Below are positions 11,468 through 41,249 of a stretch of DNA of 64,000 nucleotides, piece after piece. The notes below the pieces were generated by a model. It made no database searches, was not told where the DNA came from, and saw only the letters and a program-made list of their open reading frames with translations. The DNA is from Candidatus Spechtbacterales bacterium (GTDB lineage Bacteria > Patescibacteriota > Minisyncoccia > Spechtbacterales > 2-12-FULL-38-22). The translations under genes and the position numbers were made by a program. The stretch covers positions 29,256 to 93,255 of the forward strand of contig JBBDKX010000021.1 in assembly GCA_040879145.1 (NCBI GenBank), read 5' to 3'. The stretch's first letter is position 1. Each line of letters opens with the position of its first letter.

Positions 11468-11468
11468 A

Positions 11469-12755: not shown

Positions 12756-12773
12756 ATTGATTATTTTATTTTG

Positions 12774-16998: not shown

Positions 16999-18593
16999 AA
17001 TTTTTTAAGTGAATCGACATCGCTTTCTATATATCCTCTTAAGATATCAATTGACTCTTTCAGTTTTTCATCAAAATCACCCTTCTTGTTTGCCGGATAA
17101 TGGATACAATTTCTAATAAATGTTGGCAATGTTACTTTCGCATTTTTTACTTTAGGTTTACTTGTATCAGTACAGTCTTTTTCAGCTTTTTTTATTTGTT
17201 TGAGATATTGTTCATCAAAAGCATTTATACCTATACTTTCAATATGCTTTGATTCATCTTTTTCTTTAGAGTTCTTGTCATTAACAAACCAATCTCTTAA
17301 TTTATCGTAAAGTTCGTTGTGGTATTGTTCATCTAAAATGTCGAAAACTTCATATGACACTTCTGCATAGCTTGTTTGTTTTTTACCTAATTCATCAACC
17401 TCTCGTACATTTGTATATTCTTCATTATTTTGATTTTTTATCTTTTCAACTCGATAATATCTACCCAAATCTTTTTTATCAATCATGTAGTTCGAGTGTG
17501 TGGCGAATAAAACAATATTACTTTTGCTATTGTTTGTAATCTCTACAAGCTGAGCAAGTAAATGCTCTTGTGCTTTTGGATGTAAATGTGTTTCAGGCTC
17601 ATCAAGTAAAATAATTGTATTTTGCAGTTCCTCATTTTTATTTTCTGCAACGACAGTTAATAAAAAAGAAATGAATTGCTTAAAACCATCACTCCGCATG
17701 TCTGATGTCTGAGCTTTTCCTTCTGTATCAATATCTTTAACATGAAAATTAATATGCCCATCCATTATCTTAAATGTAATTTCTATAGGATGTTTGGGCC
17801 AAGCTGTATTAATATGCTCTGTTACATTTTTGCCAAGTCTCTTTTCAAGATATTCACAAGTTGGAGTATCAGCTAAAGCATCCTCTAGTTCCTGTTTTAT
17901 TTTATCTTGAGAAATTGAAGATAGTAAAAAACAGTTTCTCAGAGGTATTGAGGTGTTTGTGTCATTAATAAACTGTTCAATATTTATCGGTTTTGAAATT
18001 AGATAACGATCTTCTGCAGTCCAGAAAATTGTTTTATGTACATTTTCCTCTATAAAGTTATCAAATTCATCTTTGTTATTGATTTCAATTTCTTGATCTC
18101 CTTCAAAAACTGAAGTTGAATATTCAGGATCAGCACTAGCCTTAGAAAAACTAATAACATAATCTGCAATCAAAGAGCTCAAAATTTTATTCTTTGGTTT
18201 TTTAACTTCCTTAATTTTACTATCTTCAACATCTTGCGTCTGCCCACCTTCTATAGCAGAAACTTCTTTTTCTAAATTTGGGACTGGATTATCAACAGAA
18301 TCTTCTTTATTTAAAATCTCGTACAATTCCTTATCCTCTTTCGAAGTAATACTATATCGATAAGTAATTTTTATTTCTTCTTTTAATCTAAAGTCTTTTA
18401 ATAATGGAAGTTTTGTACCAGAGTCGTCAACTAATCCATCTTTTAAGCCAATCGCTTTTAATATAGATGATTTACCAGCTTCATTTATTCCTATTAATCC
18501 GTAAGTGAAACTATTGTCATCTCTTTTGATTATGTTAAAAGGAGTTTCTTTTATACTTCTATAATTTTCAATTGTAATTTTTGTGATTTTCAT
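16995..18593 (-). CDS. ABC/SMC-like AAA ATPase (OLD/AAA_15-like head) with about 130-aa C-terminal domain of unknown function, embedded between hsdM and hsdS
   Basis: Start reassigned to MKITKITIENYRSIK (ATG 18593, 4 nt after hsdM stop); Walker A GINEAGKSSILKAIGL; Walker B ILLDEPETHLHP; ATHSNYMID. Confidence 0.7.
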   Translation of the reverse strand: MKITKITIENYRSIKETPFNIIKRDDNSFTYGLIGINEAGKSSILKAIGLKDGLVDDSGTKLPLLKDFRLKEEIKITYRYSITSKEDKELYEILNKEDSVDNPVPNLEKEVSAIEGGQTQDVEDSKIKEVKKPKNKILSSLIADYVISFSKASADPEYSTSVFEGDQEIEINNKDEFDNFIEENVHKTIFWTAEDRYLISKPINIEQFINDTNTSIPLRNCFLLSSISQDKIKQELEDALADTPTCEYLEKRLGKNVTEHINTAWPKHPIEITFKIMDGHINFHVKDIDTEGKAQTSDMRSDGFKQFISFLLTVVAENKNEELQNTIILLDEPETHLHPKAQEHLLAQLVEITNNSKSNIVLFATHSNYMIDKKDLGRYYRVEKIKNQNNEEYTNVREVDELGKKQTSYAEVSYEVFDILDEQYHNELYDKLRDWFVNDKNSKEKDESKHIESIGINAFDEQYLKQIKKAEKDCTDTSKPKVKNAKVTLPTFIRNCIHYPANKKGDFDEKLKESIDILRGYIESDVDSLKKL

Positions 18594-18597
18594 AAAT

Positions 18598-20178
18598 TTA
18601 TCGTTTAGTATTTTCAATATCCGCCACAATCTCATCAATCGCAGTACGCAGTTCATTTTGTCTTGACACGATCTTGGCAATTTTTTCGTTGAGTTCCGTT
18701 ATATTCACCACCTCGCGTGTATCTTCCGCCATCACATAACTTGAAACCGCAATATTGTAATCATTCTCACCAATAGTTTTATTATCAACTAACTTTGCAA
18801 AATACTCTGCATCTTGTCGTAGCGTAAAAGCATCAAGAATTTTTTTGCGATTTCCTTCGCTCAATTTATTTTTATTTCCGCCCCGTACAAATTCAGCCGA
18901 GGCATCAATAAATAAAGTTTTGTTGTCTTTTTTGCTTTTTTTCAAAACAATAATGCAAGTAGCAATAGTCACCCCAAAAAATAGATCGGGGGGAAGCTGG
19001 ATAACCGTATCAATATAGTTATTATCAACCAAATACTTGCGGATTTTTTGTTCAGCTCCGCCACGATAGAGAACTCCCGGAAATTCAACAATCGCCGCCG
19101 TTCCGCTGGTTGAAAGCCACGCAAGCATGTGCATGGTAAAAGCGAGATCAGCTTTGCTCTTTGGCGCCAACACCCCAGCCGGCGAAAAACGCGGATCATT
19201 AATCATCAAAGGATTGGCATCGCCGTCCCACTTTATCGAATATGGCGGATTAGAAACAATGGCGTCAAACGGTTCATCATCCCAATGTTTTGGATCAGTG
19301 AGTGTGTCGCCGTGAGCAATATCAAAATGATTGTAATTAATATCATGCAAAAACATGTTGATACGGCAAAGATTGTAGGTAGTGAGATTTATTTCTTGAC
19401 CAAAAAATCCCTGCCTGACATTTTCCTTGCCAAGCACTTTTGCAAATTTCAAAAGAAGCGAACCAGATCCACAGGCTGGATCGTAGACTTTATTAACTTC
19501 TGTTTTGCCTGCTGTTGCGATTTCCGCCAAAAGCTCGCTCACTTCTTGAGGTGTATAATATTCTCCGCCAGATTTACCAGCATTAGATGCGAACATCGCC
19601 ATTAAATATTCGTAAGCATCACCAAAAGCGTCGATTGTATTATCTCCATAATTACCAAGACGAAGATCGCCGATGGCTTCTAAAAGTTTTACGAGTTTTT
19701 GATTTCTTTTCTCTACAGTTCCACCGAGCTTATTTGAATTCACATCTAAATCGTCAAATAATCCTTTCAAGTCATCTTCACTATCAAATCCTTTCGCAGA
19801 ATTTTCGATATTATCAAAAACATTTGAAAGTGTTTCGTTAAGTTTTGCATCGTTGCGAGCATTTTTACGAACATTTACAAAAAGAGCACTTGGTAAAATA
19901 TAAAAACCTTTTTCTTTTATAGTGTCGGCTCTTCCAAATTCAGCTTCTTTATCAGAAAGTGAAGCATAATCAAAATCTTTGTTGCCGGTGCGTCGCTCAT
20001 CGGCATTGATGTAATTTGTAAGATTTTCGCTGATGAAACGATAAAAAAGTATTCCAAGAACATATTGCTTGAAATCCCACCCATCAACGGCACCTCGCAA
20101 ATCATTGGCAATCTGCCAAATAGCACGATGAAGTTCGGCTCGTTCTTGTTCTTTGGTTGTATTTAGATTATTTGCCAT
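18598..20178 (-). CDS. hsdM: Type I restriction-modification DNA methyltransferase (HsdM), N6-adenine
   Basis: 526 aa; HsdM_N; SAM motif YDPACGSGSLL; catalytic SNPPYSIKW. Confidence 0.9.
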   Translation of the reverse strand: MANNLNTTKEQERAELHRAIWQIANDLRGAVDGWDFKQYVLGILFYRFISENLTNYINADERRTGNKDFDYASLSDKEAEFGRADTIKEKGFYILPSALFVNVRKNARNDAKLNETLSNVFDNIENSAKGFDSEDDLKGLFDDLDVNSNKLGGTVEKRNQKLVKLLEAIGDLRLGNYGDNTIDAFGDAYEYLMAMFASNAGKSGGEYYTPQEVSELLAEIATAGKTEVNKVYDPACGSGSLLLKFAKVLGKENVRQGFFGQEINLTTYNLCRINMFLHDINYNHFDIAHGDTLTDPKHWDDEPFDAIVSNPPYSIKWDGDANPLMINDPRFSPAGVLAPKSKADLAFTMHMLAWLSTSGTAAIVEFPGVLYRGGAEQKIRKYLVDNNYIDTVIQLPPDLFFGVTIATCIIVLKKSKKDNKTLFIDASAEFVRGGNKNKLSEGNRKKILDAFTLRQDAEYFAKLVDNKTIGENDYNIAVSSYVMAEDTREVVNITELNEKIAKIVSRQNELRTAIDEIVADIENTKR

Positions 20179-21205: not shown

Positions 21206-22819
21206 ATGGACAACATAAATTTACAAACCAAAAAGTTTTTCCTCTATGCCCGTAAATCCACGGACGAACCCGAAAGGCAGGTTTTGAGTATTGAAGCGCA
21301 AATTTTCGAGCTGAAAGAATACGCCCGAAAAGAAAATTTGCAGATCGTCCGTGAATTTGTGGAAAGCAAAACCGCCAAAGAACCCGGGCGAGAAATTTTT
21401 AATGAAATGGTGGCGGGCATAGAGAAAAACGAAGCCGAGGGAATTTTAGCGTGGCACCCTGACCGTCTTGCTCGCAATTCCATAGACGGCGGACGAATAA
21501 TCTATCTTGTAGATACTGGAAAGATCACCACGCTAAAATTTCCAACTTTTTGGTTTGATTCAACTCCACAGGGAAAATTTATGTTGTCCATTGCTTTTGG
21601 GCAATCAAAATACTATGTGGATAATCTTTCGGAAAATATAAAGAGGGGTATTCGCCAGAAATTGCGAAATGGAATTTGGCCCGCTTGGGCGCCACTTGGC
21701 TATATAAACGATAAAAACGCTCGCTGTATCGCTGTGGACAAAGAAAAGGCGAAGTATATCAAGCGGGCTTTTGAAATGTATTCAACTGGCGAATATCCCC
21801 TCGCTCAAATCCGAAAGATTATCAATTCCTTGGGCTTGGTTGGCAAGAAAGGCAAAATGCTTTCCGTCTCAAATTATCAATATATGCTCAAGAACAAAAT
21901 ATATTTTGGCATGATTGAATATAACGGCGAATTGTATGACGGAAAGCATGAACCGATTATCACAAAGAAACTTTTTGATTCTGTTCAAGAAGTGATGATG
22001 AAAAAATCCAAACCGAAAACGCCAAAATTGAAACCGTATGTGTATAGAGGATTTTTCCGTTGCGGAGAGTGTGGCTGTTTCATAACTACCGAAACGCAGA
22101 AAGGTCATAACTACCTGCGATGCACTAAACGGAAAAATCCTTGCACGCAAAAATATGTTCGCGAGGAAATCATCACTTCTCAAATAAAAGAGGAAATCAA
22201 AAAAGTTTCTTTGTCTTCCGCTTGGGCAAACGCTTCAATCAATTATTTTGAAAATGAAAAATTGAAAACCGCCCAAGCGGAAAGCTCTTTTGCCCAAAAG
22301 TCGCGAGATGAGCTTGTGGAAACAGAAACAAAACTTGATCGTTTGCTTGATTTACATTTGGAAGGCAGTTTGTCGCAAACGGAATATGCTACTAAAAAGC
22401 ACAAGCTCATTCTCGCAAAAAAGGATTTGGAAGAAAAAATCTCGTCTTTTGGGCGAAAGAGCAATAATCGGTTCGAACTTGCCATAAACTTCATAAAAGA
22501 AGCCAACCAAGCCGAAAAATACGCTCAACAAGAAAATCCCGAAAGGATTCGGGATTTTCTCAAAAAGATTGGTTCGAACTTCCGCATTGCCGACCGCTCT
22601 TTGTTTTTGGATTTCAAAAATGCCTTCAAAATTGCGGAAAAATACCATGCCGAGGCGCTTTGCGCCGAGGCAATTCCTTACGATTTCACAAAAAGTGAAA
22701 ATTGGCGGAGGGGGTGGGACTCGAACCCACATAGGCTTGCGCCTGCCAGTTTTCAAGACTGGTTCCTTAGCCAATTCGGAGCACCCCTCCTTATTTATTT
22801 TTTCTTCTTTTTACCCTGA
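21206..22819 (+). CDS. Large serine recombinase (resolvase N-domain + recombinase domain + zinc ribbon + coiled coil)
   Basis: YARKSTDEPERQ catalytic Ser motif; PLGYIND recombinase domain; CGECGCFITTETQKGHNYLRC zinc ribbon; ORF as predicted runs through IR-B2 and antisense across tRNA-Ser, so true stop is uncertain. Confidence 0.8.
   Translation: MDNINLQTKKFFLYARKSTDEPERQVLSIEAQIFELKEYARKENLQIVREFVESKTAKEPGREIFNEMVAGIEKNEAEGILAWHPDRLARNSIDGGRIIYLVDTGKITTLKFPTFWFDSTPQGKFMLSIAFGQSKYYVDNLSENIKRGIRQKLRNGIWPAWAPLGYINDKNARCIAVDKEKAKYIKRAFEMYSTGEYPLAQIRKIINSLGLVGKKGKMLSVSNYQYMLKNKIYFGMIEYNGELYDGKHEPIITKKLFDSVQEVMMKKSKPKTPKLKPYVYRGFFRCGECGCFITTETQKGHNYLRCTKRKNPCTQKYVREEIITSQIKEEIKKVSLSSAWANASINYFENEKLKTAQAESSFAQKSRDELVETETKLDRLLDLHLEGSLSQTEYATKKHKLILAKKDLEEKISSFGRKSNNRFELAINFIKEANQAEKYAQQENPERIRDFLKKIGSNFRIADRSLFLDFKNAFKIAEKYHAEALCAEAIPYDFTKSENWRRGWDSNPHRLAPASFQDWFLSQFGAPLLIYFFFFLP
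22575..22709. repeat. IR-B2 (partner of 20958-21091), ending in the tRNA-Ser 3' terminus
   Basis: Sequence identity with reverse complement of IR-B1. Confidence 0.85.
22703..22790 (-). tRNA. tRNA-Ser (anticodon UGA), long variable arm, CCA encoded
   Basis: Minus-strand GGAGGGGTGCTCCGAATTGGCTAAGGAACCAGTCTTGAAAACTGGCAGGCGCAAGCCTATGTGGGTTCGAGTCCCACCCCCTCCGCCA; cloverleaf and anticodon loop CTTGAAA. Confidence 0.85.
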
Positions 22820-23500: not shown

Positions 23501-23538
23501 ATAAAATATTAGCTTGTTCTGTTTAATTATTGCTGATG

Positions 23539-23623
23539 CGGAGGAGGTGGGATTCGAACCCACGGGCCGCTAACGCGGCACGGTTTAGCAAACCGTCCCA
23601 TTTGACCACTCTGGCACTCCTCC
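23539..23623 (-). tRNA. tRNA-Ser (anticodon GCU), long variable arm
   Basis: Minus strand GGAGGAGTGCCAGAGTGGTCAAATGGGACGGTTTGCTAAACCGTGCCGCGTTAGCGGCCCGTGGGTTCGAATCCCACCTCCTCCG. Confidence 0.8.
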
Positions 23624-23643: not shown

Positions 23644-24660
23644 TTAATTGTTGTATTTTTTCAAATGTTTAGGATTATTACTGCTTATTGTATCAAAATA
23701 AATTTTCATGTCATGCTTACTATCCAAACGCACATCCCGCCCTGCCAGTCTTGGATTTAAGCCAGTATTGCGCATTATTTTGAAAACTGAATTTCTAAGG
23801 GGTTCTGAATAAGATGTAAATGACAGTTTTTTATAAGAGTACTCCTTACTCTTAACTCTATATCTATGAATAAAAATAGAGCCATCTGTGTCAACCAAGC
23901 CCCGCAGGCACGCAATTTCGAAATCTTTATCACCCATTATCCATTTCGGTATATCTACCTGCTTTTTTATTTTATTACCTCTTACTAAACCCAGATTATT
24001 TTCACAAAACCTTACTAACTCTACTCGAGATACCGCATAAATACACGCATTAGCATCTTTTCGTTCGTGAATTCCCACATATACTCCAAACAGATTCTCC
24101 ATTAAATTTTTTACATATACGCCATATTTTTTATCATCTTTACTATGAAGTGTAACTGTAACCTGTTGATTAGATATACCCCCATCCCCTAACATTATTC
24201 CAACAAACTCTGCAAGGCTTTTTGAGTATTTAGGTTTTTTAATTTTTATTGGAGCACTTGTAAGCCCGCTTGACTTAAAACGCCCTTCTTTCTCCCACCA
24301 TTCATACCATTTCTGTTTTCTGTATTTCTCATTTTTTGGCATTTCCCCATACTTACTAATAACAGCCTCCCACCCCAACTTTGCGCCTTCATGCGCATAC
24401 CAATATTTATCTAACATCGTTATATCTTTAGGCCAAGATTGTTTAGATTTCTCACATAAAATTTTCAACGATTTTTCATTTATTAAAAATTTTTCACGTC
24501 GCCAATCTCTAACAGTACGCTCAGACCTACCACACCACTTTGCCATTTGTTCAACTGAAAACTCTTTTTCTATATTTTCTATAAAAGCTTTTTGTTTTCC
24601 TTTTGGAAATCTTATTCTGCTATCTTTAATCTTTTCAGCCATATCTCCATAATACACCAT
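23644..24660 (-). CDS. Free-standing LAGLIDADG homing endonuclease (two motifs) with N-terminal HTH-like region
   Basis: LAEFVGIMLGDGGIS and LRGLVDTDGSIF LAGLIDADG motifs; 338 aa; 21 nt upstream of tRNA-Ser(GCT). Confidence 0.8.
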   Translation of the reverse strand: MVYYGDMAEKIKDSRIRFPKGKQKAFIENIEKEFSVEQMAKWCGRSERTVRDWRREKFLINEKSLKILCEKSKQSWPKDITMLDKYWYAHEGAKLGWEAVISKYGEMPKNEKYRKQKWYEWWEKEGRFKSSGLTSAPIKIKKPKYSKSLAEFVGIMLGDGGISNQQVTVTLHSKDDKKYGVYVKNLMENLFGVYVGIHERKDANACIYAVSRVELVRFCENNLGLVRGNKIKKQVDIPKWIMGDKDFEIACLRGLVDTDGSIFIHRYRVKSKEYSYKKLSFTSYSEPLRNSVFKIMRNTGLNPRLAGRDVRLDSKHDMKIYFDTISSNNPKHLKKYNN

Positions 24661-32582: not shown

Positions 32583-34253
32583 CTAATCATCAGAATCTTC
32601 AACAGTTTTCTCTTTTTCTGTGTGATTTTTTCCATCATAAGAATGTACTATCACGCGCATATTTCTCATTACAACAACTTCAGATTTTCCATGCTTTGGC
32701 TTTACTTCCACCTCTTTTTCATCTAATATCTCTACAGTTTCCAGATGCACGGGCTTGCTCCACATTCTGTAAATGTGCTCAAGAGTTCCCGATTCAAACC
32801 TCGGATCAAGCTCAAATCCTGTGAAATGATGCTTCAGGTAAAGCTCGCCTCTGCGTTTGTAATTTCCATCTTCAACAGTAACCAGAGGGCTGTTGTAAAG
32901 GCCGTGGAAGTTCTTCAACTGTTGTCTTATAACTTCCGGGCGGTCTTCAACAATGACATCCACATATTCGCCATTCCAGTAAACCTGTTCCCAAATATAC
33001 AGCTCCTGTTCTCTTATGAACTCGTCTGTAAAAAATTCCTCTATTGCCATCCTGTCGCTATAAGCAGTTCTTATTTCAAAAAGCTTTTCTCTGCCTTTCA
33101 TAGCTCCCATATCCCAGGTTAAATGCTTACGCGGGTCATTAGAGTCTTCATACTCTATACCGAACTGTCCTTTATTCCATCTATCTTCAACATACCCGTA
33201 CATGGCAACACCAATCCTGTACCAGTTCATAGATTTTTTGTTTTCCGCTAAGACTGCAGAGTTATACTGGTTGAAAACTCCATGCTCTCTTTCAGTTAAA
33301 AGACCTTCTTCAAAAAGTTGTCTGATTATCTTCGTGTGCCAGTAAGTGGCCCAACCTTCGTTAAGAAGTTTTGTTCTCCTTTGTGGAGCAAGATATCTTG
33401 CCTGGTGTCTTACAACCTGCAATACGTCGCGCTCCCAGTCGCGCAAGGGCTTTGGAGAGTGGTCTGTAATGTATTTGAGAACATCGTGCGTTGGCACGGG
33501 GGGTGTTCGGTATTTCAATCTCTTAAGACGGGAGTTTATACTGATTAATTCTTTATCAGTATAATTTTTCAAGTTAAACTCGGAGCTTAATCCGCCTTTT
33601 GCTCTTTCCAGTTTTGCGCGTTCTCTTTCCATAAGATCTTCTCTTACCGCTTCTTCATCAAGATCTTCCGCGAACGGATCAGGATCCTGAATCCACTGAA
33701 TCGTCATAGCGGCATCTATCATCTGCTCTACGGCATCTACACCGTATATTTTTTCATATTCCTGAAAACGCTTTGCGGCATTGCGCGCTTCACGCGCCAT
33801 GTCCGCGATTTCACGACCGCGATTTAGATACCTGCTTCCCAGAAAGAAATCAACATGGCCATAAACATGACACAAGATAACAACATTCAACGCAAACGGG
33901 TTGGTGTCTACAAGAAAGGCGCGCGGAGTATCAAAATTCCACACAACCTCGTAAGGTATTCCCGCACCCGTATGGTCATAAATTGTCCTCTGTCTCTCAA
34001 AGTCGCGTCCGCGACTCCAGTGTGAAAAGTTGGTTGGAAACCCGTAAGCCATGGCTTCTATCATTCTTTTTGGAGGTACAAGTTCAAAAATAATCTCAGT
34101 TGTTATAAGCCCGTTTTCTTGTGCTATCTCATGAACTCTTTTTTCTATGGTTTTTAAGCGTTCTATCTCCTCTCTATTCACTTTGACCACCTCTCTCTGT
34201 AAAGAAATTCGCGAATAACTGCCCATAACTGTTCTTTTTCTTCTATCTTGCAC
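32583..34253 (-). CDS. SpoVR/YcgB family protein
   Basis: 556 aa; third gene of conserved prkA-yeaH-ycgB module. Confidence 0.7.
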   Translation of the reverse strand: MQDRRKRTVMGSYSRISLQREVVKVNREEIERLKTIEKRVHEIAQENGLITTEIIFELVPPKRMIEAMAYGFPTNFSHWSRGRDFERQRTIYDHTGAGIPYEVVWNFDTPRAFLVDTNPFALNVVILCHVYGHVDFFLGSRYLNRGREIADMAREARNAAKRFQEYEKIYGVDAVEQMIDAAMTIQWIQDPDPFAEDLDEEAVREDLMERERAKLERAKGGLSSEFNLKNYTDKELISINSRLKRLKYRTPPVPTHDVLKYITDHSPKPLRDWERDVLQVVRHQARYLAPQRRTKLLNEGWATYWHTKIIRQLFEEGLLTEREHGVFNQYNSAVLAENKKSMNWYRIGVAMYGYVEDRWNKGQFGIEYEDSNDPRKHLTWDMGAMKGREKLFEIRTAYSDRMAIEEFFTDEFIREQELYIWEQVYWNGEYVDVIVEDRPEVIRQQLKNFHGLYNSPLVTVEDGNYKRRGELYLKHHFTGFELDPRFESGTLEHIYRMWSKPVHLETVEILDEKEVEVKPKHGKSEVVVMRNMRVIVHSYDGKNHTEKEKTVEDSDD

Positions 34254-35557
34254 CCTATGAAAGGATATTCTCCCGAACCAACAATCATGTCTTCACCATC
34301 TCCGCCATCAGAACCCACATGGTTAAGAGGCATATTTAGATAAAACTCATTAAAGAGATTGCTCATGCTTTTGAAATATTCATCCACATGAATTTCCGCG
34401 TAACCAAACATGTTTATCTTCAACTTCTCTATCATCATCTTGGCGCCCTCAACAGCTTTTTCAGGGTTGAAGTCCCACCCGTCGGAAAATTGAAAAACAT
34501 AAACATTCCATTGTTTGGTTGGATACTGCGTCTCTATCAGGTCAATGGCCTTTTTATGCGCCTCATAAGCCACAGTACCACCGCTCTCCATGGTGTGAAA
34601 AGCGGTGTGTTCATCTACAATCCTCGCGGTTGAGTGGTAAATTATAAAGCGTATTTCCACATTGTCGTAAATCTTGCGCAAAAACTCCGTGAGCCAAAAC
34701 GCGATAGAACGAGCGAGATACTTCTTTACAGTGGTCATAGACCCCGAAACATCCAGCTCTATAATTATTACAGCATTGGATTCGTGAGTAGTCTGCTCCT
34801 CAAGATTGTGAAATCTTAGGTCTTCTTCTTCAAATATGGGGAAGGGATTGATGTCGTCTTCATCCCAATCATCATCTTCTCCGGCTAAAAATTCCGCATC
34901 CGACAAGAGCTCTCTTGCCTCATTAAGGTTTCCGTTAGAATCCTCAAGGGCTTTAGCGCAAAGGAATTTATTCTTTCCTGTTTCATCTTCCAGTATGTCC
35001 AAAAGCATATAAAAACGCTTGATACCTTCTCTGGCCGTCCTTTTTTTGAAAAGAAGGGCCGGAGGACCGCTCTTTCGCAATCCTGATATCTTAAATCCCA
35101 TATCAATTTCCAGCTGTTCTACATCCTTCTTTTCAATGTTAGGCAGCCCGAGATCTTCAAGCATCATCTCTATAACTTCTTCGATATCAATCTCTGTTTC
35201 AATGAAATCTTCTCCGGGCTCTTCTCCGGCTTCTCCGGGCTCTCCCCCTCCACCGGGAGCGGGTTTGCGACCTATAACATCGCCTTGCTTGCCTTTGCCT
35301 TGGCCTATGCCACCTCCACCGGGATTGGCTCCCGAACCACCACCCTCTTCTTTCTTCCTTTTTCCCGGACGCAAGTCCGGAATAACAACACCTCTAATAG
35401 GTACTTTAACTTTTCTGCCCTTTTTATCGGTAATTATGTTTTCTTCAGAAATTATGTCGGGAAGTTTTTTGCGAATTATCTCTCTCTGCTTGTCTCTATG
35501 GCGCTTAGCGTCTTTTCTGCCGCGCTCACCCTTTGGACTTGAATGCACTATTGGCAT
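34178..35557 (-). CDS. YeaH/YhbH family protein (DUF444, vWA-like)
   Basis: 459 aa; Gly-rich linker, C-terminal vWA-like IIELDVSGSM. Confidence 0.7.
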   Translation of the reverse strand: MPIVHSSPKGERGRKDAKRHRDKQREIIRKKLPDIISEENIITDKKGRKVKVPIRGVVIPDLRPGKRKKEEGGGSGANPGGGGIGQGKGKQGDVIGRKPAPGGGGEPGEAGEEPGEDFIETEIDIEEVIEMMLEDLGLPNIEKKDVEQLEIDMGFKISGLRKSGPPALLFKKRTAREGIKRFYMLLDILEDETGKNKFLCAKALEDSNGNLNEARELLSDAEFLAGEDDDWDEDDINPFPIFEEEDLRFHNLEEQTTHESNAVIIIELDVSGSMTTVKKYLARSIAFWLTEFLRKIYDNVEIRFIIYHSTARIVDEHTAFHTMESGGTVAYEAHKKAIDLIETQYPTKQWNVYVFQFSDGWDFNPEKAVEGAKMMIEKLKINMFGYAEIHVDEYFKSMSNLFNEFYLNMPLNHVGSDGGDGEDMIVGSGEYPFIGCKIEEKEQLWAVIREFLYRERWSK

Positions 35558-35653
35558 TGCACTCCTCCTTTCTTATTGAGTGTCGTGTTAAAAAATAGGC
35601 GGGGTTCCCGACGCTCCCAGAAGGAACGCCGGGAAATCCCCGCCATAAGTACA

Positions 35654-37771
35654 TTACTCATTAAGTATCTCAGAAGCGGTTCGCACCGCCTCTTTCGCGC
35701 CTGTTCTGCAAAATCCGCGCTCTTTAAGGCCATCATACAGATCTTTTGCTCTCTGCTTGATATCAGCGTCCTCTGGACGATCAGATGCCAAGACAAGTGT
35801 AAGAGATGTGCGGGAACGCTCCAAGAGCATTCTTTCCACAGCCCTTCTCAGGGGCTGATAATTGTCGTATCCAAAACCAGGCTGACTGATTCTCTCAAGG
35901 ATTTCTCCCCTGAAAACATCAGCTTGATTCTTGGGTATAGGAATCTGGTCTTCAACCGCGCGCATGAATTTTTCATCAGGCTCGCTCGGCTTACCCGTTA
36001 TAGGGTCACGCCTTATGTTGCTTTTATCTCCGCGTACAAATTTCCTCTTGCGCTCTCTATCGTAAGTTATCTCTTCAACATATTTATCAAAGATCTCTTC
36101 TGCCTGGTCACGATATGCTCCCAGGTAAGCGCGCTGTACCTCGTTAAGGATAAACTCCTTATAGAGCTCAATAACGCTTCCGCCTTCTTCTGAACTTAAA
36201 AGGTCCTGGAAAAACTTAATCTGCTCAGGCTCATAACCCATTCTATGGTTGAACACCTCACGCAGAGAACGAATCGCCTTAAGGGGTGTAAGACACCCAT
36301 TTTCAGCACCTTCCTCTTTTACAAGTCCGTTGTTTAAAGCGGCAAGAATATCTCGACTGGAAACGCCGAACATTCCTTCCCGTTCAGCTATGTCATCGTT
36401 TTTTTGACCCTCTTCAATAAGAGATTCTATGTCAACTGCCTGATTTTCATCATCAACGGCGTCTGTAAAAATCTTTTCGCCGTTATACAGCTGAAGCTTA
36501 GTTATAGGATCAACATTCATGTTGCTCTTAACAAGACGTGACAACACCGCGAACGATGCGGCAAGCTTGAAAGTTCCGGGGCAAATATGGCAACTCTGAA
36601 GCTGATCCAGGTCGCTTTCGCCCTGAATTAGCTTTTCATAAACCCTGATTTCATCCTGCACTCTGAGCGGATAAGGAAAGGGTACAACATAGATTCTGTC
36701 GTGAAGGGCTTCATGAGCCTGATTACTTGAGAACCACTTGTATCCTGTAAGGTTGCAGTGGCCTACTACCACAGTATCCACGGATACATGGCTAAAGTTA
36801 GAACCCTGAACCTTAATTTCCTGCTCTTCAGCAACATTGATGAATACCCAGAGAATGCGCTCGTCAATACCTTTTTTGATAAACTCGCGACCTTCAACTA
36901 TTCCACGGTTTCCTTTTTCTATCTCACCGTTTAAGTGGAAGGAATTTCTGTCTCGATAACCCTTTTTACTGCTTGTAACGCGGAAGTTCTCACGACCGAC
37001 AAGGTCGCTTACATCCTGGCTTTTTTCATCACTTGGCTCAAAAGAGCCGATACCCTGACTTTCCTGCATAGAAAACGAAAAGGTTTCAACTTTAATCTCC
37101 CACCATCTCAAAACTCCGTCTTCATCTGCAAAATCTTCCTTCATCGCGATGCGGCAATGAGGGCAAAGATCTCCCTTGATATCAGAGATACCAAGCTCAT
37201 CTTCAATAGGCTTATCGAGACCCACTTTTAACGCCTTCTCTTTGTCAAAATGACTTCGGCGCATATACCTGGGGAGCGCATGGAGCGGCTCCTCGTTCAT
37301 AGGGCAGTTCATAATCCTGTAAACAGGCCTAATGTTGTAACCCTCAAGTGCTCTTTTGATAATATTAGCAAAAGAGCTCTTGCCGGATGCTGTAGGACCC
37401 ACCAAGAGCAAAATCTGTTTACCTGTAGAAAGGCGATTTGCTCCCGCCTTAAGATATTCAAGCACCTGTTCGGTGGGCTTTTCTACTCCATAAAGAGTAT
37501 CACTAATAAGTTTGCGCCTAACAGTAGAACCAAGCCACTGCTCATCATAAGGAATTTCCTCAAAACCCGCCTCTTCAAACAACTCCAGAAGCCGGGCCGG
37601 AGACACCTGTGAAACCTTCGGATCCTCCCTGACCACATCAAGATACTCACGCAGAGTCATCTCTACGTGGTCTTTCTTTTTGTTGCGCTTAATCTCCGCA
37701 TCTTTTTGTATAATGGCATCAATATCAAAACTTCTTTCATTTGACATAAAGTCCTCCTTCCTTTCGTTCAC
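35654..37771 (-). CDS. prkA: PrkA-family serine protein kinase (AAA+ / Lon-like)
   Basis: 705 aa; Walker A LLLVGPTASGKSSFANIIK; PrkA C-terminal region. Confidence 0.85.
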   Translation of the reverse strand: MNERKEDFMSNERSFDIDAIIQKDAEIKRNKKKDHVEMTLREYLDVVREDPKVSQVSPARLLELFEEAGFEEIPYDEQWLGSTVRRKLISDTLYGVEKPTEQVLEYLKAGANRLSTGKQILLLVGPTASGKSSFANIIKRALEGYNIRPVYRIMNCPMNEEPLHALPRYMRRSHFDKEKALKVGLDKPIEDELGISDIKGDLCPHCRIAMKEDFADEDGVLRWWEIKVETFSFSMQESQGIGSFEPSDEKSQDVSDLVGRENFRVTSSKKGYRDRNSFHLNGEIEKGNRGIVEGREFIKKGIDERILWVFINVAEEQEIKVQGSNFSHVSVDTVVVGHCNLTGYKWFSSNQAHEALHDRIYVVPFPYPLRVQDEIRVYEKLIQGESDLDQLQSCHICPGTFKLAASFAVLSRLVKSNMNVDPITKLQLYNGEKIFTDAVDDENQAVDIESLIEEGQKNDDIAEREGMFGVSSRDILAALNNGLVKEEGAENGCLTPLKAIRSLREVFNHRMGYEPEQIKFFQDLLSSEEGGSVIELYKEFILNEVQRAYLGAYRDQAEEIFDKYVEEITYDRERKRKFVRGDKSNIRRDPITGKPSEPDEKFMRAVEDQIPIPKNQADVFRGEILERISQPGFGYDNYQPLRRAVERMLLERSRTSLTLVLASDRPEDADIKQRAKDLYDGLKERGFCRTGAKEAVRTASEILNE

Positions 37772-39429: not shown

Positions 39430-39543
39430 AATTATCTCCTTTCTTTTTTAAGGTTCTATTTTCTGAACTTATCATACTTTCTATAAACCCCATACGTCAA
39501 CTTGATTTTTTATAAAAACTTGGTAAAATAAATACACGTTACT

Positions 39544-39558
39544 GGTCCCATCGTCTTA
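39544..39558 (+). other. 15-nt 5' fragment of a tRNA-Glu (acceptor 5' strand + D-stem), followed by 31-bp IR arm
   Basis: GGTCCCATCGTCTTA matches the 5' end of tRNA-Glu at 39714. Confidence 0.5.
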
Positions 39559-39559
39559 G

Positions 39560-39939
39560 AGCCCGTTCTTTGCAATCTAAAATCAATTTGACGGAGCGAA
39601 TTTTCAAATGAATGCTAGGCGTGAGGAGCGAAGCGATGCCAGGAGCATCGTGAGCAACGAACAACAACGCAGGCATTGAAAATTCGCCCGCCGACTCATT
39701 TAATTTACATTGCGGTCCCATCGTCTAGTCTGGCCTAGGACGCCAGGTTTTCATCCTGGTAACACGGGTTCGAATCCCGTTGGGACCGCAATGTACGTTA
39801 GTAAAAGGAAACAAAATAGTACGCCATCTGCTTCGTTACGCTTTCCTAGAAGTAATATAAATTACTCCTTCGTCACCGCGCCTACCATATGGCGCACTCT
39901 TTTGTTTTCAAATTGATTTTAGATTGCAAAGAACGGGCT
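39560..39939. repeat. Segment bounded by perfect 31-bp inverted repeat (39560-39590 / 39909-39939) enclosing an intact tRNA-Glu
   Basis: AGCCCGTTCTTTGCAATCTAAAATCAATTTG and its exact reverse complement. Confidence 0.85.
39714..39788 (+). tRNA. tRNA-Glu (anticodon UUC)
   Basis: GGTCCCATCGTCTAGTCTGGCCTAGGACGCCAGGTTTTCATCCTGGTAACACGGGTTCGAATCCCGTTGGGACCG; close to the E. coli tRNA-Glu pattern. Confidence 0.85.
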
Positions 39940-39942
39940 GAA

Positions 39943-39991
39943 GCCTAGGACGCCAGGTTTTCATCCTGGTAACACGGGTTCGAATCCCGTT
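39943..39991 (+). other. 3' two-thirds of a second tRNA-Glu copy (D-loop to CCA), lacking its own 5' end
   Basis: GCCTAGGACGCCAGGTTTTCATCCTGGTAACACGGGTTCGAATCCCGTTGGGACCGCCA identical to intact copy; CCA encoded here but not in intact copy. Confidence 0.6.
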
Positions 39992-40058
39992 GGGACCGCC
40001 ATATAAATTACCAAAAGGAAAACGGCTTATTAAGCCGTTTTCCTTTATAGATCAATTA

Positions 40059-41249
40059 ATGAGAGTGCTTGGCATAGAAACATCATGCGATGACACAGCC
40101 ATCGCCCTGCTTGAAGCCAAAAGAGAACTCCCCTCTCCCGAACTTAAGTTGCTTAAAAATATAGTATCTTCACAGGTAAAAATGCACTCCGAATACGGAG
40201 GAGTTGTGCCGGGATTAGCAAAGAGAGAACATCAAAAGAATTTAATTCCGGTGTTGTTTGAAGCACTGGAATTAAATTCCATGAAACATGAAACAGGAAA
40301 CATGAAACAGGCCCAAAAAATTAAAAACATTGAAAAAATATTAGAAAGATATGATGACCTGCTTGAGGAATTTAAAGAAAAGGTAGTACCGATTGAAAAG
40401 CCTGCTGTAGATTTAATCGCTGTAACTCATGGTCCAGGGCTTGAGCCCGCACTGTGGGTGGGAGTTAATTTTGCCCGCGCTTTGTCCGCTTTATGGGATA
40501 TTCCCATAATTGGAGTGGACCATATGGAAGGCCACATTGCAGTAAATTTACTGCAATGTGGAAATTCAAAATTCAAAATTCAAAATTCGAAATTAGCGAG
40601 AGAAATTGAATTTCCTGCAATTTCTCTCGCTGTATCGGGTGGGCATACCCAGCTTATACTTATTAAAAACTGGATGGATTATGAAATTTTAGGCGAAACT
40701 CTTGACGATGCGGCGGGTGAAGCATTTGATAAAGTAGCCCGCTTAATTGGGCTTGGATTTCCCGGAGGGCCTGAAATTGAAAAAATCGCAAAAAAGGGAG
40801 ACCCTAAGGCCTTTGATTTTCCCCGCCCCATAATGAACAGGCCGGATTATAACTTCAGTTTTTCAGGCTTAAAAACTGCAGTTATGTATAAAGTCAAAGA
40901 AATGACAGAAAAAGAAATAAAAAGCAGGCAAGCCGATATTGCCGCTTCTTTCCAGCAGGCGGCAATTGATACACTTGTTAAAAAATCTATAAAAGCGGCA
41001 AAAGCGCATAATATAAAAACATTTATGCTTGCGGGAGGAGTTGCGGCAAATACAGCGTTGCGCGAACAAATGAAAGAAGCTCTAAAAAAAGAGCTTCCCG
41101 AAGCTCAGTTTATGGTTCCCGAAATAAAACTGGCAACAGACAACGGTGCCATGATAGCGGTTGCCGGTTACATGCGCTATAAAGCGGGACAAAAAAGCAA
41201 CTGGCACACACTTAAAGCAGACAGTTCAAAGTTGATTACAGAGGAATAA
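40059..41249 (+). CDS. tsaD: tRNA N6-adenosine threonylcarbamoyltransferase TsaD (Kae1/Gcp)
   Basis: MRVLGIETSCDDTAIAL...; HMEGH; SGGHTQL; in-frame (AAAATTC)x4 SSR insertion. Confidence 0.85.
   Translation: MRVLGIETSCDDTAIALLEAKRELPSPELKLLKNIVSSQVKMHSEYGGVVPGLAKREHQKNLIPVLFEALELNSMKHETGNMKQAQKIKNIEKILERYDDLLEEFKEKVVPIEKPAVDLIAVTHGPGLEPALWVGVNFARALSALWDIPIIGVDHMEGHIAVNLLQCGNSKFKIQNSKLAREIEFPAISLAVSGGHTQLILIKNWMDYEILGETLDDAAGEAFDKVARLIGLGFPGGPEIEKIAKKGDPKAFDFPRPIMNRPDYNFSFSGLKTAVMYKVKEMTEKEIKSRQADIAASFQQAAIDTLVKKSIKAAKAHNIKTFMLAGGVAANTALREQMKEALKKELPEAQFMVPEIKLATDNGAMIAVAGYMRYKAGQKSNWHTLKADSSKLITEE

What the first reader, a model, noticed from the sequence alone, without database searches (positions are those of the whole stretch)
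39544..39991. Nested tRNA-Glu locus: intact tRNA-Glu inside a 380-bp element bounded by a perfect 31-bp inverted repeat that splits a second tRNA-Glu copy in its D-loop
Seen: GGTCCCATCGTCTTA (39544-39558, 5' acceptor + D-stem) | 31-bp IR arm | about 120 bp with its own nested hairpin | complete tRNA-Glu(UUC) 39714-39788 (no encoded CCA) | about 120 bp | 31-bp IR arm (exact reverse complement) | 3' part GCCTAGGAC...TTGGGACCGCCA (39943-39991, CCA encoded). Removing the IR-bounded segment joins the halves into a plausible tRNA-Glu with a 10-nt D-loop. Possible explanations are: a hairpin-ended mobile insertion carrying a replacement tRNA; an intron-like or RNase III-processed insertion yielding a split tRNA; or a tandem-duplication scar. 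All are unusual for bacteria.
Basis: seen in the sequence. Interest (0 to 1): 0.7.

Follow-up and report, generated by a model that had tools for sequence, protein, structure and literature searches.

The report
tRNA gene split by tRNA-carrying insert
In a tiny-genome (CPR/Patescibacteria) bacterium, the glutamate-tRNA gene is cut in two by a 380-base, hairpin-rich insertion with no protein gene that carries its own intact copy of the same tRNA; related genomes show the insertion is real, keeps its shape and does not follow host ancestry, which is an unusual way for a piece of DNA to sit harmlessly inside an essential gene.

Summary
Window 39544-39991 holds a resident tRNA-Glu(UUC) gene with its own promoter, encoded CCA and terminator. 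Its D-loop is split by a 380-bp non-coding element (39560-39939) bounded by a perfect inverted repeat. Inside are hairpin A, a complete tRNA-Glu on an extended leader/trailer stalk, and hairpin C.

It is not an assembly artefact. A different Spechtbacterales species (L002) has the same architecture at the same site, and three other genomes carry rearranged variants. The sister genomes of both full carriers have a plain tRNA-Glu.

All four helices keep pairing through compensatory changes. Element similarity conflicts with host relatedness, while the outside flanks follow the host.

Best reading (confidence about 0.55): a small, protein-less, structured insertion element specific for tRNA-Glu that carries a replacement tRNA. 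The outer halves are remnants of the disrupted resident gene: U14 in both, a broken acceptor stem in L002, and partner halves missing in the variants.

Rfam finds no group I or II intron or ribozyme, and there is no BHB splice motif. How the element moves is not established, nor whether its fold is selected in RNA or in DNA.

I found no published description.

The parts
39502..39529 (+). Resident sigma-70-like promoter (TTGATT, 16-nt spacer, TAAAAT, with a TG extension) of the outer tRNA-Glu gene
   Evidence: The empty-site relative L001 has the same promoter. Equivalent promoters lie upstream of the outer 5' fragment in L002 and L057. No promoter is predicted directly upstream of the inner tRNA.
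39544..39559 (+). Outer 5' fragment of the resident tRNA-Glu: 13 nt (positions 1-13, acceptor 5' strand and D-stem 5' strand) identical to the inner copy, then the junction nucleotides TAG
   Evidence: Direct repeat D5; BLAST. L002 has the same break point after GTCT, and so does the L004 array.
39560..39591 (+). Left arm of the perfect 32-bp terminal inverted repeat
   Evidence: Pairing is conserved across the two arm types, with 13 pairs changed on both sides.
39592..39693 (+). Hairpin A: a 21-24-bp basal stem, purine-rich conserved internal strands (GAGGAGCGAA and GAGCAACGAA) and a small apical hairpin
   Evidence: Alignments A1 and A4; 11 of 21 basal pairs changed on both sides and 93% of cells paired. 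Covariance model R1 finds it in five genomes. The 23-codon ORF inside it is not conserved.
39701..39713 (+). 5' strand of the stalk (leader) that pairs with the trailer and extends the inner tRNA's acceptor stem
   Evidence: Inverted repeat I2. The stalk is seen only on element-borne tRNA-Glu copies. Six stalk pairs changed on both sides.
39714..39789 (+). Inner, complete tRNA-Glu(UUC) without encoded CCA; presumed to be the working gene
   Evidence: ARAGORN; Rfam RF00005, 61.4 bits, E = 2.8e-12.
39789..39800 (+). 3' strand of the stalk (trailer; begins with the discriminator G, which pairs with position -1)
39802..39907 (+). Hairpin C: a 23-bp basal stem and pyrimidine-rich conserved internal strands (CGCTTTCC and CTCCTTCGTC)
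   Evidence: Alignments A2 and A5; 9 of 23 basal pairs changed on both sides and 95% of cells paired. Covariance model R2 finds it in four genomes.
39908..39939 (+). Right arm of the perfect 32-bp terminal inverted repeat
39940..39991 (+). Junction nucleotides GAA, then the outer 3' fragment of the resident tRNA-Glu (D-loop 3' part to the acceptor end, 39943-39988) and an encoded CCA (39989-39991)
   Evidence: Direct repeat D1. 57 nt (39943-39999) are 100% identical to the inner copy. CCA is also encoded in the empty-site genes of L001 and L061.
40014..40046 (+). 16-bp hairpin after the outer gene, a likely terminator of the whole unit, followed by tsaD (40062-41249)
   Evidence: Inverted repeat I4. 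The simple terminator scan did not call it. TsaD identity.

Best explanation
This is a small (380 bp), protein-less, highly structured insertion element specific for the tRNA-Glu gene of Candidatus Spechtbacterales (CPR/Patescibacteria).

Anatomy. The element sits in the D-loop of the resident tRNA-Glu(UUC) gene and carries a complete tRNA-Glu(UUC) of its own. The outer 5' (13-16 nt) and 3' (49 nt plus CCA) pieces are the remnants of the disrupted resident gene. The inner copy is the working gene.

Expression (inferred). Transcription most likely starts at the resident promoter and runs through left arm, hairpin A, stalk-tRNA-stalk, hairpin C, right arm and the 3' remnant to the resident terminator hairpin. 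The precursor folds into a four-way junction whose helices are all 20-32 bp long. The inner tRNA would then be cut out by RNase P and 3' processing, possibly helped by RNase III cutting the long helices, and CCA would be added enzymatically.

Evolution (inferred). Because the element supplies the essential tRNA it destroyed, the insertion is neutral and hard to lose. The outer remnants stay identical to the inner copy by gene conversion.

Spread (inferred). The element has moved between lineages or been inserted more than once. Either an unknown trans-acting enzyme acts at the start of the D-loop, or incoming DNA recombines using the near-invariant tRNA halves as portable homology arms.

Shown: the anatomy, conservation in other species, covariation of all four helices, empty sites in sister genomes, element/host incongruence, and defects of the outer gene.
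For: Anatomy and significance.

Real and conserved:
- L002, a different MAG and species (TsaD 62% identical), has the same architecture at the same break point, 79% identical over 499 bp. It folds into the same four-way structure.
- L057 and L058 are independent ENA and JGI assemblies of one variant.

Empty sites:
- L001, sister of the window genome (TsaD 72%), has a plain tRNA-Glu with CCA behind the same promoter. So does L061, sister of L002 (TsaD 77%).

Structure under constraint:
- Arms: 13 pairs changed on both sides, 1 on one side.
- Hairpin A basal stem: 11 of 21 pairs changed on both sides. Hairpin C basal stem: 9 of 23. In both, 93-95% of cells are paired, against 30-48% when partners are slid.
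- Stalk: 6 pairs changed on both sides.

The stalk is found only on element-borne tRNA-Glu copies.

Incongruence with host:
- Window-L002 elements are 76% identical (arms 88-94%) with TsaD at 62%. Window-L057 elements are 55% identical with TsaD at 66%.
- L059's hairpin A is closest to the window's. L063's hairpin A is a mosaic.
- The promoter flanks follow the host: W-L001 69%, L002-L061 71%, W-L002 50%.

The outer gene is not maintained as a tRNA:
- U14 in both outer copies; two mismatches plus a G.U pair in the L002 outer acceptor stem.
- L063 lacks the 5' fragment. L059 lacks the right half. The L057 outer pieces lack the anticodon arm.

Other support:
- The promoter lies only upstream of the outer 5' fragment.
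- The break point after position 13 recurs in L004, with a different TIR-bounded 102-nt unit.
- tRNA-Glu is a hot spot for other inserts in this clade (module 2 in L057, L060, L064).
- No intron or ribozyme family matches.
Against: - There is no target-site duplication. Six resident D-loop nucleotides (AGTCCG) are replaced by T-AG...GA-A in the window and T-GC...A-AG in L002.
- No transposase or integrase lies in or next to the element.
- Only one copy is present in the 64-kb window.
- Nothing related was found in the viral, phage or plasmid collections. One metagenome scan gave only an unexplained 28-mer.
- Only five element-bearing genomes are available, and the host tree rests on one protein. 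Ancestral polymorphism followed by repeated precise loss cannot be excluded.
- The L057/L063 variant has the tRNA outside the inverted repeat. 'Element with a tRNA at its centre' is therefore not the only arrangement, and the history is unresolved.
- The antisense strand folds as stably as the sense strand. RNA-level selection is therefore not demonstrated.
- Expression and processing are entirely inferred.
Confidence: 0.55

Rival explanations
1. The arrangement is an in-situ rearrangement, not a mobile element. Hairpins A and C would be a lineage-specific structured leader/trailer RNA, or small RNA genes, co-transcribed with tRNA-Glu. Fold-back or template-switch duplication and gene conversion around the highly transcribed, hairpin-forming tRNA gene would have produced the inverted repeat, the stalk and the partial tRNA copies. 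The patchy distribution would reflect repeated loss by recombination between the direct tRNA repeats.
For: - One copy per locus, no target-site duplication and no transposase.
- The trailer after the inner tRNA resembles the resident 3' flank. Repeat D1 extends 22 nt past the tRNA at reduced identity, and the leader is 87% complementary to the resident 3' flank (inverted repeat I3).
- Covariance models of A and C cross-hit each other's reverse complement. There is weak sequence similarity between A and rc(C) in L057 and L063.
- The direct repeats of 13 nt and 57 nt give a simple route to an empty site.
- A and C covary like functional RNAs.
Against: - Element similarity contradicts host relatedness, while the flanks follow the host.
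- The same break point and junction are seen in two sub-clades whose sister genomes are empty.
- Hairpin A is a mosaic in L063.
- Similarity between A and rc(C) is not significant in the window or in L002 (z = 0.8-1.2).
- Hits to a model's own reverse complement score similarly, so the covariance-model cross-hits are weak evidence.
Confidence: 0.22
2. The insert is an intron-like or intervening-sequence element removed at the RNA level, for example by RNase III cutting the 32-bp stem. This would yield a second functional tRNA-Glu, either religated or working as two base-paired pieces, in addition to the inner tRNA.
For: - The joined halves fold as a tRNA-Glu cloverleaf with encoded CCA.
- The outer pieces are transcribed from a good promoter.
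- The outer 3' fragment is 100% identical to the inner copy.
- The long perfect helix is an ideal RNase III substrate. RNase III cleavage of inverted-repeat hairpins in transcripts is documented for Correia elements (PMC10969869).
- Patescibacteria are rich in tRNA introns (PMC13011429).
Against: - No group I or II intron or self-cleaving ribozyme family matches, even at E <= 10.
- The insertion is in the D-loop, whereas the known Patescibacteria tRNA introns lie in the anticodon loop.
- There is no bulge-helix-bulge motif. The 5' strand runs continuously into the stem and only the 3' strand has a 5-nt bulge.
- Both outer copies have U instead of the near-universal A14. The junction nucleotides differ between the window and L002.
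- The L002 acceptor stem is damaged.
- L063, L059 and L057 lack a complete outer partner.
Confidence: 0.08
3. The locus holds remnants of two separate integrative elements: one that duplicated the 5' end of the tRNA and one that duplicated the 3' part (att-type duplications). Each would since have been eroded to a few hundred bases.
For: - Displaced tRNA fragments are the classic mark of integrase-mediated insertion.
- In the same clade, a different module is followed by a 19-nt 3' fragment starting in the T-loop, which looks like an attR remnant (L057, L060, L064).
- L059 carries only the left half.
- L064 has a phage-like tail-spike chaperone gene next to the locus.
Against: - Two independent events would not leave outer ends that are a perfect 32-bp inverted repeat of each other and that covary across genomes.
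- In L057 and L063 the two halves are contiguous, as one unit.
- There is no integrase.
- A D-loop location is not one of the usual integrase sublocations (anticodon loop, T-loop, 3' end; my own knowledge of Williams 2002).
Confidence: 0.08
4. The locus is an assembly artefact, a chimeric or fold-back mis-join at a repeated tRNA.
For: The window is from a metagenome-assembled genome. Repeats and palindromes can mislead assemblers.
Against: - The same architecture appears in an independent MAG of another species, with 21% sequence divergence and compensatory changes.
- The variant form was assembled identically by two independent pipelines (L057 from ENA, L058 from JGI).
Confidence: 0.02

Closest known systems
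Palindromic MITEs that are co-transcribed and cut by RNase III (Correia/NEMIS elements of Neisseria; PMC2649163, PMC10969869)
   Same: Both are short, protein-less elements bounded by terminal inverted repeats that lie inside transcription units. Their transcripts fold into long hairpins that are natural RNase III substrates.
   Different: - Correia elements are 100-155 bp, are present in tens to hundreds of copies and make target-site duplications.
- This element is single-copy as far as can be seen, has no target-site duplication and sits inside a tRNA gene.
- It has two large covarying internal hairpins and carries a complete tRNA gene.
Integrative elements that target tRNA genes and restore the gene with their own copy of the displaced part (genomic islands and prophages; Reiter 1989 and Williams 2002, from my own knowledge; discussed in PMC3218864)
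   Same: The logic is the same: insert into a conserved tRNA gene, supply the missing sequence so that the cell keeps a working tRNA, and leave a displaced tRNA fragment as a direct repeat.
   Different: - Those elements carry an integrase, are kilobases long and use the anticodon loop, the T-loop or the 3' end.
- They supply only the 3' (rarely the 5') part of the tRNA.
- Here a 380-bp element with no gene other than the tRNA supplies a whole tRNA. It splits the resident gene in the D-loop and leaves both a 5' and a 3' remnant.
Split and intron-containing tRNA genes of Archaea thought to be created by mobile elements (Chan, Cozen and Lowe 2011, PMC3218864)
   Same: - A tRNA gene is broken at a defined position.
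- Long complementary sequences flank the break.
- The distribution is patchy, with closer relatives lacking the split.
- The same position is hit in separate lineages.
   Different: - Archaeal halves are joined by a BHB-dependent endonuclease and a ligase into the only copy of that tRNA.
- Here there is no BHB motif, the organism is a bacterium and the outer halves look degenerate.
- A complete spare tRNA lies inside the insert.
[quoted passage not shown] 2026, PMC13011429)
   Same: The same phylum, the same class of host gene, and a similar size of a few hundred nucleotides of structured, mostly ORF-less RNA.
   Different: - Those introns lie in the anticodon loop and match group I models.
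- This insert lies in the D-loop, matches no intron model, is closed by a 32-bp perfect helix and contains a tRNA.
Intervening sequences (IVS) of bacterial 23S/16S rRNA that RNase III removes without religation (PMC4990558, PMC8708148)
   Same: An extended helix inserted into a loop of a structural RNA, a likely RNase III target, and selfish in character.
   Different: - An IVS leaves a functional fragmented rRNA.
- Here the interrupted tRNA is probably not functional, and the function is supplied by the nested copy.
- No tRNA IVS is known.

Membership tests
MITE (miniature inverted-repeat transposable element) | Terminal inverted repeats | tested here: met
   A 32-bp perfect inverted repeat at the two ends. 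The inverted-repeat relationship is kept across the two arm types.
MITE (miniature inverted-repeat transposable element) | Small size with no transposase or other conserved ORF | tested here: met
   380 bp. The only ORFs are short and not conserved in L002, L057 or L063.
MITE (miniature inverted-repeat transposable element) | Target-site duplication flanking the element | tested here: not met
   The flanks read ...GTCTTAG | element | GAAGCC... with no direct repeat. The resident AGTCCG is replaced rather than duplicated.
MITE (miniature inverted-repeat transposable element) | Several copies per genome and a related autonomous IS with the same ends | tested here: inconclusive
   One copy in the 64-kb window and one per related locus. 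Whole genomes were not available. Nothing with these ends turned up in the viral, phage or plasmid collections.
Group I (or group II) intron in a bacterial tRNA gene | Catalytic core recognisable by the Rfam intron models | tested here: not met
   cmscan of 39530-40000 at E <= 10 returns only tRNA-related and chance hits.
Group I (or group II) intron in a bacterial tRNA gene | Insertion in the anticodon loop, so that splicing restores a canonical tRNA | tested here: not met
   The insertion lies in the D-loop after position 13-16. The joined product has U14, and in L002 a mismatched acceptor stem. The published Patescibacteria cases are at anticodon-loop positions.
Archaeal-type tRNA intron or split tRNA | Bulge-helix-bulge motif at the exon-intron junctions | tested here: not met
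   The predicted folds of the window and L002 show a continuous 5' strand and a single 5-nt bulge on the 3' strand.
Archaeal-type tRNA intron or split tRNA | Splicing endonuclease and ligase encoded by the organism | not testable with these tools
   Only 64 kb of the genome is visible, and none was seen among the ORFs scanned.
tRNA-targeting integrative element (integrase-mediated) | Integrase gene within the element | tested here: not met
   No ORF lies within 39560-39939, and the neighbours are an AAA protein and TsaD. A large serine recombinase exists 17 kb away beside tRNA-Ser, but nothing links it to this locus.
tRNA-targeting integrative element (integrase-mediated) | An intact tRNA at one end and a displaced direct-repeat fragment at the other | tested here: met
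   A 57-nt 3' direct repeat and a 13-nt 5' direct repeat. Fragments on both sides, together with an inverted repeat, are atypical.
RNase III-excised intervening sequence (rRNA IVS type) | A long double-stranded stem at the base of the insert that RNase III cleaves | not testable with these tools
   The stem is present (32 bp perfect). Cleavage needs experiment.
RNase III-excised intervening sequence (rRNA IVS type) | The interrupted host RNA stays functional and conserved | tested here: not met
   The outer halves are defective or incomplete in L002, L057, L059 and L063.

The most novel reading that the evidence does not exclude
The element is a new kind of selfish 'gene-replacing' hitch-hiker. 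It is a protein-less structured module that lives inside a near-invariant essential gene and carries a rescue copy of that gene. It would spread across species because the conserved tRNA halves flanking it act as universal homology arms for recombination after DNA uptake, or because a dedicated trans-acting enzyme recognises the start of the D-loop. Its RNA would be a purpose-built four-way precursor from which host tRNA-processing enzymes and RNase III release the tRNA, and perhaps the conserved, mutually complementary tops of hairpins A (purine-rich) and C (pyrimidine-rich) as small RNAs.
Probability: 0.25. Interest if true: 0.8.

Novelty: new variant of a known kind. Interest (0 to 1): 0.62.

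Why it matters
tRNA genes are classic landing sites for mobile DNA, but known elements either restore only the displaced end of the gene with help from an integrase, or are introns that splice out. Here a 380-bp element with no protein gene breaks an essential tRNA gene in the D-loop and compensates by carrying a whole spare copy. That makes the insertion harmless and effectively irreversible.

If this reading is right, it shows three things:
- a minimal strategy for persistence, and possibly cross-species spread, inside one of the most conserved sequences in biology;
- tRNA loci of CPR bacteria, whose genomes are extremely reduced, are dynamic and host several families of small structured modules;
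- standard annotation reports only 'one tRNA-Glu' and hides the disrupted resident gene and about 300 nt of conserved structured RNA or DNA of unknown function.

It also gives an experimentally tractable precursor for studying tRNA processing in CPR bacteria: a tRNA on a 20-bp continuous helix with the discriminator paired and no encoded CCA.

Tried and rejected
- **Assembly artefact:** rejected. The architecture appears in independent assemblies and species with compensatory changes.
- **Group I/II intron or self-cleaving ribozyme:** two Rfam scans, including a permissive one at E <= 10, gave nothing.
- **BHB splice motif:** absent in the predicted folds.
- **Small protein encoded in hairpin A** (ATG...TGA, 23 codons at 39614-39685): not conserved in L002, L057, L059 or L063.
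- **Multi-copy repeat in the window:** none for the arms, A, C or module 2.
- **More family members:**
  - The single metagenome scan gave two chance 20-mers and one unexplained 28-mer.
  - Three viral-contig scans gave nothing.
  - The phage and plasmid collections gave nothing.
- **Strand test for RNA-level selection:** G.U against A.C counts and sense against antisense MFE were not discriminating. The antisense strand folds as stably as the sense strand.
- **'Whole element is one long degenerate palindrome':** covariance-model cross-hits suggested it. Direct A against rc(C) alignment is weak (z = 0.8-3.4), and hits to a model's own reverse complement score alike. I keep it only as a possibility.
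- **Nearby recombinase as the mobilising enzyme:** none is adjacent. The serine recombinase at 21.2-22.8 kb belongs to a separate island beside tRNA-Ser.
- **Literature:** six full-text searches found no description of a tRNA gene nested in a tRNA gene or of this element.
Full report
**1. What is in the sequence**

Window 39544-39991 reads, on the + strand:
- GGTCCCATCGTCT (tRNA-Glu positions 1-13), then TAG;
- a 32-nt arm (39560-39591);
- hairpin A (39592-39693);
- a 13-nt leader (39701-39713);
- a complete tRNA-Glu(UUC) (39714-39789, no encoded CCA);
- a trailer complementary to the leader (to 39800);
- hairpin C (about 39802-39907);
- the exact reverse complement of the arm (39908-39939), then GAA;
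- the 3' part of tRNA-Glu from the D-loop to the end, with CCA encoded (39943-39991).

The arm is unique in the window, and shuffles never produce a match. The inner tRNA scores 61.4 bits on Rfam's tRNA model. The unit folds with MFE -189.1 kcal/mol, z = -13.2 against shuffles. The fold is a closing stem (extended D-stem plus the 32-bp arms) and three arms: hairpin A, the tRNA on an extended stalk, and hairpin C.

A sigma-70-like promoter (TTGATT-16-TAAAAT) ends 14 nt before the outer 5' fragment. A 16-bp hairpin follows the outer 3' fragment, and tsaD starts at 40062.

**2. Organism and reality of the feature**

The neighbouring TsaD places the window in Candidatus Spechtbacterales, a CPR/Patescibacteria lineage.

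- In the closest genome, L001, the same promoter drives a plain tRNA-Glu with encoded CCA directly upstream of tsaD. This is an 'empty site'.
- In L002, a different species from a different study (TsaD 62% identical), a 499-bp stretch is 79% identical to the whole unit. The parts are in the same order and the break point is the same (GTCT|T...). It folds into the same four-way shape.
- L061, sister of L002, is again an empty site whose leader matches that of L002's outer fragment.

An assembly artefact is therefore excluded.

**3. Variants**

- L057 and L058 (two independent assemblies) and L063 carry arm-A-C-arm as one contiguous 270-bp unit with a different arm sequence. A spacer follows, then the tRNA-Glu on the same kind of stalk, then a 33-nt 3' fragment. 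L057 has a 29-nt 5' fragment upstream and L063 has none.
- L059 has the 5' fragment, left arm, hairpin A and the tRNA, but no right half.
- L057, L060 and L064 also carry an unrelated 'module 2'. It is followed by a 19-nt 3' fragment that starts in the T-loop.
- The more distant L004 has a tandem array of a 102-nt unit bounded by terminal inverted repeats. Each unit is followed by tRNA-Glu positions 1-13.

The tRNA-Glu locus of this clade is thus a hot spot, and position 13/14 is a recurrent break point. More distant relatives have ordinary tRNA-Glu genes.

**4. Structure is conserved by compensatory change**

- Arms: between the two arm types, 13 of 29 comparable pairs changed on both sides and stayed paired. 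Only one changed on one side.
- Hairpin A basal stem: 21 pairs, 11 with changes on both sides, 93% of cells paired. Slid controls give 30-44%, and 0 of 500 shuffles reach the observed covariation score.
- Hairpin C basal stem: 23 pairs, 9 with changes on both sides, 95% of cells paired.
- Stalk under the inner tRNA: it adds about 13 bp to the acceptor stem and pairs the discriminator base. Six pairs changed on both sides. It occurs only on element-borne tRNA-Glu copies, not on empty-site tRNA-Glu genes or on other tRNAs. The one exception is a tRNA-Val in L063.
- Internal strands: those of A are purine-rich and conserved (GAGGAGYGA and RAGYRACGA). Those of C are pyrimidine-rich (GCTCCTCC and CTCCTTCGT), so the two sets are complementary.

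Two tests came out weak or uninformative:
- A as an ancient inverted copy of C is only weakly supported. The covariance models cross-hit. Sequence z-scores are 0.8-3.4, and hits to a model's own reverse complement score the same.
- The antisense strand folds as stably as the sense strand. I cannot say from sequence whether selection acts on RNA or on single-stranded or cruciform DNA.

**5. Is the outer gene a working split or intron-containing tRNA?**

Probably not.
- Rfam finds no intron or ribozyme, even at E <= 10.
- The published Patescibacteria tRNA introns are group I and sit in the anticodon loop (PMC13011429).
- There is no bulge-helix-bulge motif.
- The joined outer halves fold as a cloverleaf, but both genomes have U at position 14.
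- The junction nucleotides differ: TAG/GAA in the window and TGC/AAG in L002.
- The L002 outer acceptor stem has G.U, U.U and C.C pairs.
- L063 has no 5' half and L059 has no 3' half. The L057 outer pieces lack the anticodon arm.

The outer 3' fragments are nevertheless identical to the inner copy in every genome, including a lineage-specific T-loop base. The L002 changes are confined to the last few nucleotides. This is the pattern expected from gene conversion by the inner copy, with tracts ending at the edge of homology. That is inference.

**6. Vertical or mobile?**

- A TsaD tree pairs the window with L001 (72%) and L002 with L061 (77%). L057, L063 and L059 form a third group.
- Element similarity does not follow this tree. 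Window-L002 elements are 76% identical (arms 88-94%), although these are the most distant hosts. Window-L057 elements are 55% identical.
- L059's hairpin A is closest to the window's.
- L063 equals L057 in hairpin C and the arms (97-100%), but its hairpin A is only 75% identical, with an apical part like L002's.
- The 60 nt upstream of the outer gene follow the host: W-L001 69%, L002-L061 71%, W-L002 50%.

The simplest reading is that the element entered the same site in different lineages, or was exchanged between them. Ancestral polymorphism with repeated precise loss, by recombination between the 13-nt and 57-nt direct repeats, cannot be excluded with five carriers and a one-gene tree.

I found nothing that could catalyse movement. 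There is no ORF in the element. The neighbours are PrkA, an AAA protein, TsaD and a coupling-protein-like ATPase. There is no target-site duplication. A large serine recombinase lies 17 kb away in a separate island beside tRNA-Ser. Recombination after DNA uptake, using the conserved tRNA halves as homology arms, is a possible protein-independent route. That is inference.

**7. How it most likely works**

Shown:
- a resident gene is split in the D-loop by a conserved structured element that carries a complete tRNA;
- the only predicted promoter is the resident one.

Inferred:
- the whole unit is one precursor, and the element's self-contained helices keep it from interfering with tRNA folding;
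- RNase P and 3' processing, possibly helped by RNase III on the 20-32-bp helices as documented for Correia elements (PMC10969869), release the inner tRNA, and CCA is added enzymatically;
- the outer halves are by-products;
- the element persists because it replaced the essential gene it broke.

**8. Comparison with known systems and novelty**

The element works like a palindromic MITE combined with the 'restore the tRNA' logic of tRNA-targeting integrative elements. It also echoes the archaeal split tRNAs attributed to mobile elements (PMC3218864).

It fails defining tests for each family:
- MITE: no target-site duplication and apparently one copy;
- integrative element: no integrase and a D-loop site;
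- archaeal split tRNA: no BHB motif and degenerate outer halves;
- group I/II intron: no intron core.

I found no description of a complete tRNA nested in the D-loop of another copy, or of hairpins A and C, in Rfam or in the literature searched. I rate it a new variant of a known kind. It is of real interest to people who study CPR genomes, tRNA biology and mobile DNA, but the mechanism is unproven.

**9. Limits**

- There are five element-bearing genomes.
- There are no expression data.
- Only 64 kb of the host genome is visible.

Noticed in passing
window 21206-22819 (+), with tRNA-Ser(TGA) at 22703-22790 (-) and the region from about 10730 to 20178: A large serine recombinase (Resolvase + Recombinase + Zn-ribbon domains) has a 3' end that overlaps tRNA-Ser(TGA). 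Upstream of it lies a probable integrated defence island: type I R-M HsdR/HsdS/HsdM, an AAA_15/AbiEii-like ATPase, DUF2130 and a HARE-HTH protein. No displaced tRNA-Ser fragment was found in the window.
   Followed up: partly
window 23644-24660 (-): A free-standing ORF with a LAGLIDADG_3 homing-endonuclease domain lies directly upstream of, and co-oriented with, tRNA-Ser(GCT) (23538-23623).
   Followed up: no
L057 2331-2445 (-), L060 141-290 (+), L064 2691-2820 (+): A second conserved structured module of about 115 nt (GGGATTTGAAAGGCGGAG...GAGCTTAGTGAGCTGACGCC) is always followed by a 19-nt tRNA-Glu 3' fragment that starts in the T-loop. Its first 10 nt pair with that fragment. It looks like an attR-type remnant or a small RNA with a tRNA-like 3' end.
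   Followed up: partly
L004 2471-2870 (-): A tandem array of perfect 115-nt units. Each unit is a 102-nt sequence with imperfect terminal inverted repeats of about 14 bp, plus tRNA-Glu positions 1-13. The last unit runs into the full tRNA. This is the same break point (13/14) as in the window. Part of the array is masked with N.
   Followed up: partly
L054 1045-1072 (soil metagenome contig Ga0066652_100318117): An exact 28-nt match to window 39576-39603 (inner end of the left arm plus the start of hairpin A) in a GC-rich, unrelated contig. There is no inverted repeat, no tRNA and no further similarity. It is too long to be chance and is unexplained.
   Followed up: partly
L063 741-817 (-): A tRNA-Val(UAC) in a tRNA cluster also has a 14-bp leader/trailer helix that pairs the discriminator, like the element-borne tRNA-Glu copies. 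Its flanks contain TTCGTCG and CGACGAA-like motifs reminiscent of hairpins C and A.
   Followed up: no
L064 685-2415 (-) and 2830-2990: Next to the tRNA-Glu/module 2 locus there is a gene with a Peptidase_S74 (phage tail-spike chaperone) domain. There is also a block of iteron-like 10-11-nt repeats in inverted arrays. Both suggest remains of a phage or plasmid at this tRNA.
   Followed up: no
window 39614-39685 (+): A 23-codon ORF (MNARREERSDARSIVSNEQQRRH) lies inside hairpin A. It is not conserved in the other genomes, so it is probably not a gene.
   Followed up: yes
window 32583-37771 (-): A conserved SpoVR-like, DUF444 and PrkA gene trio lies upstream of the locus. It is syntenic with the tRNA-Glu/tsaD region in several relatives. 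Such a stress-kinase module is not expected in a genome this reduced.
   Followed up: no
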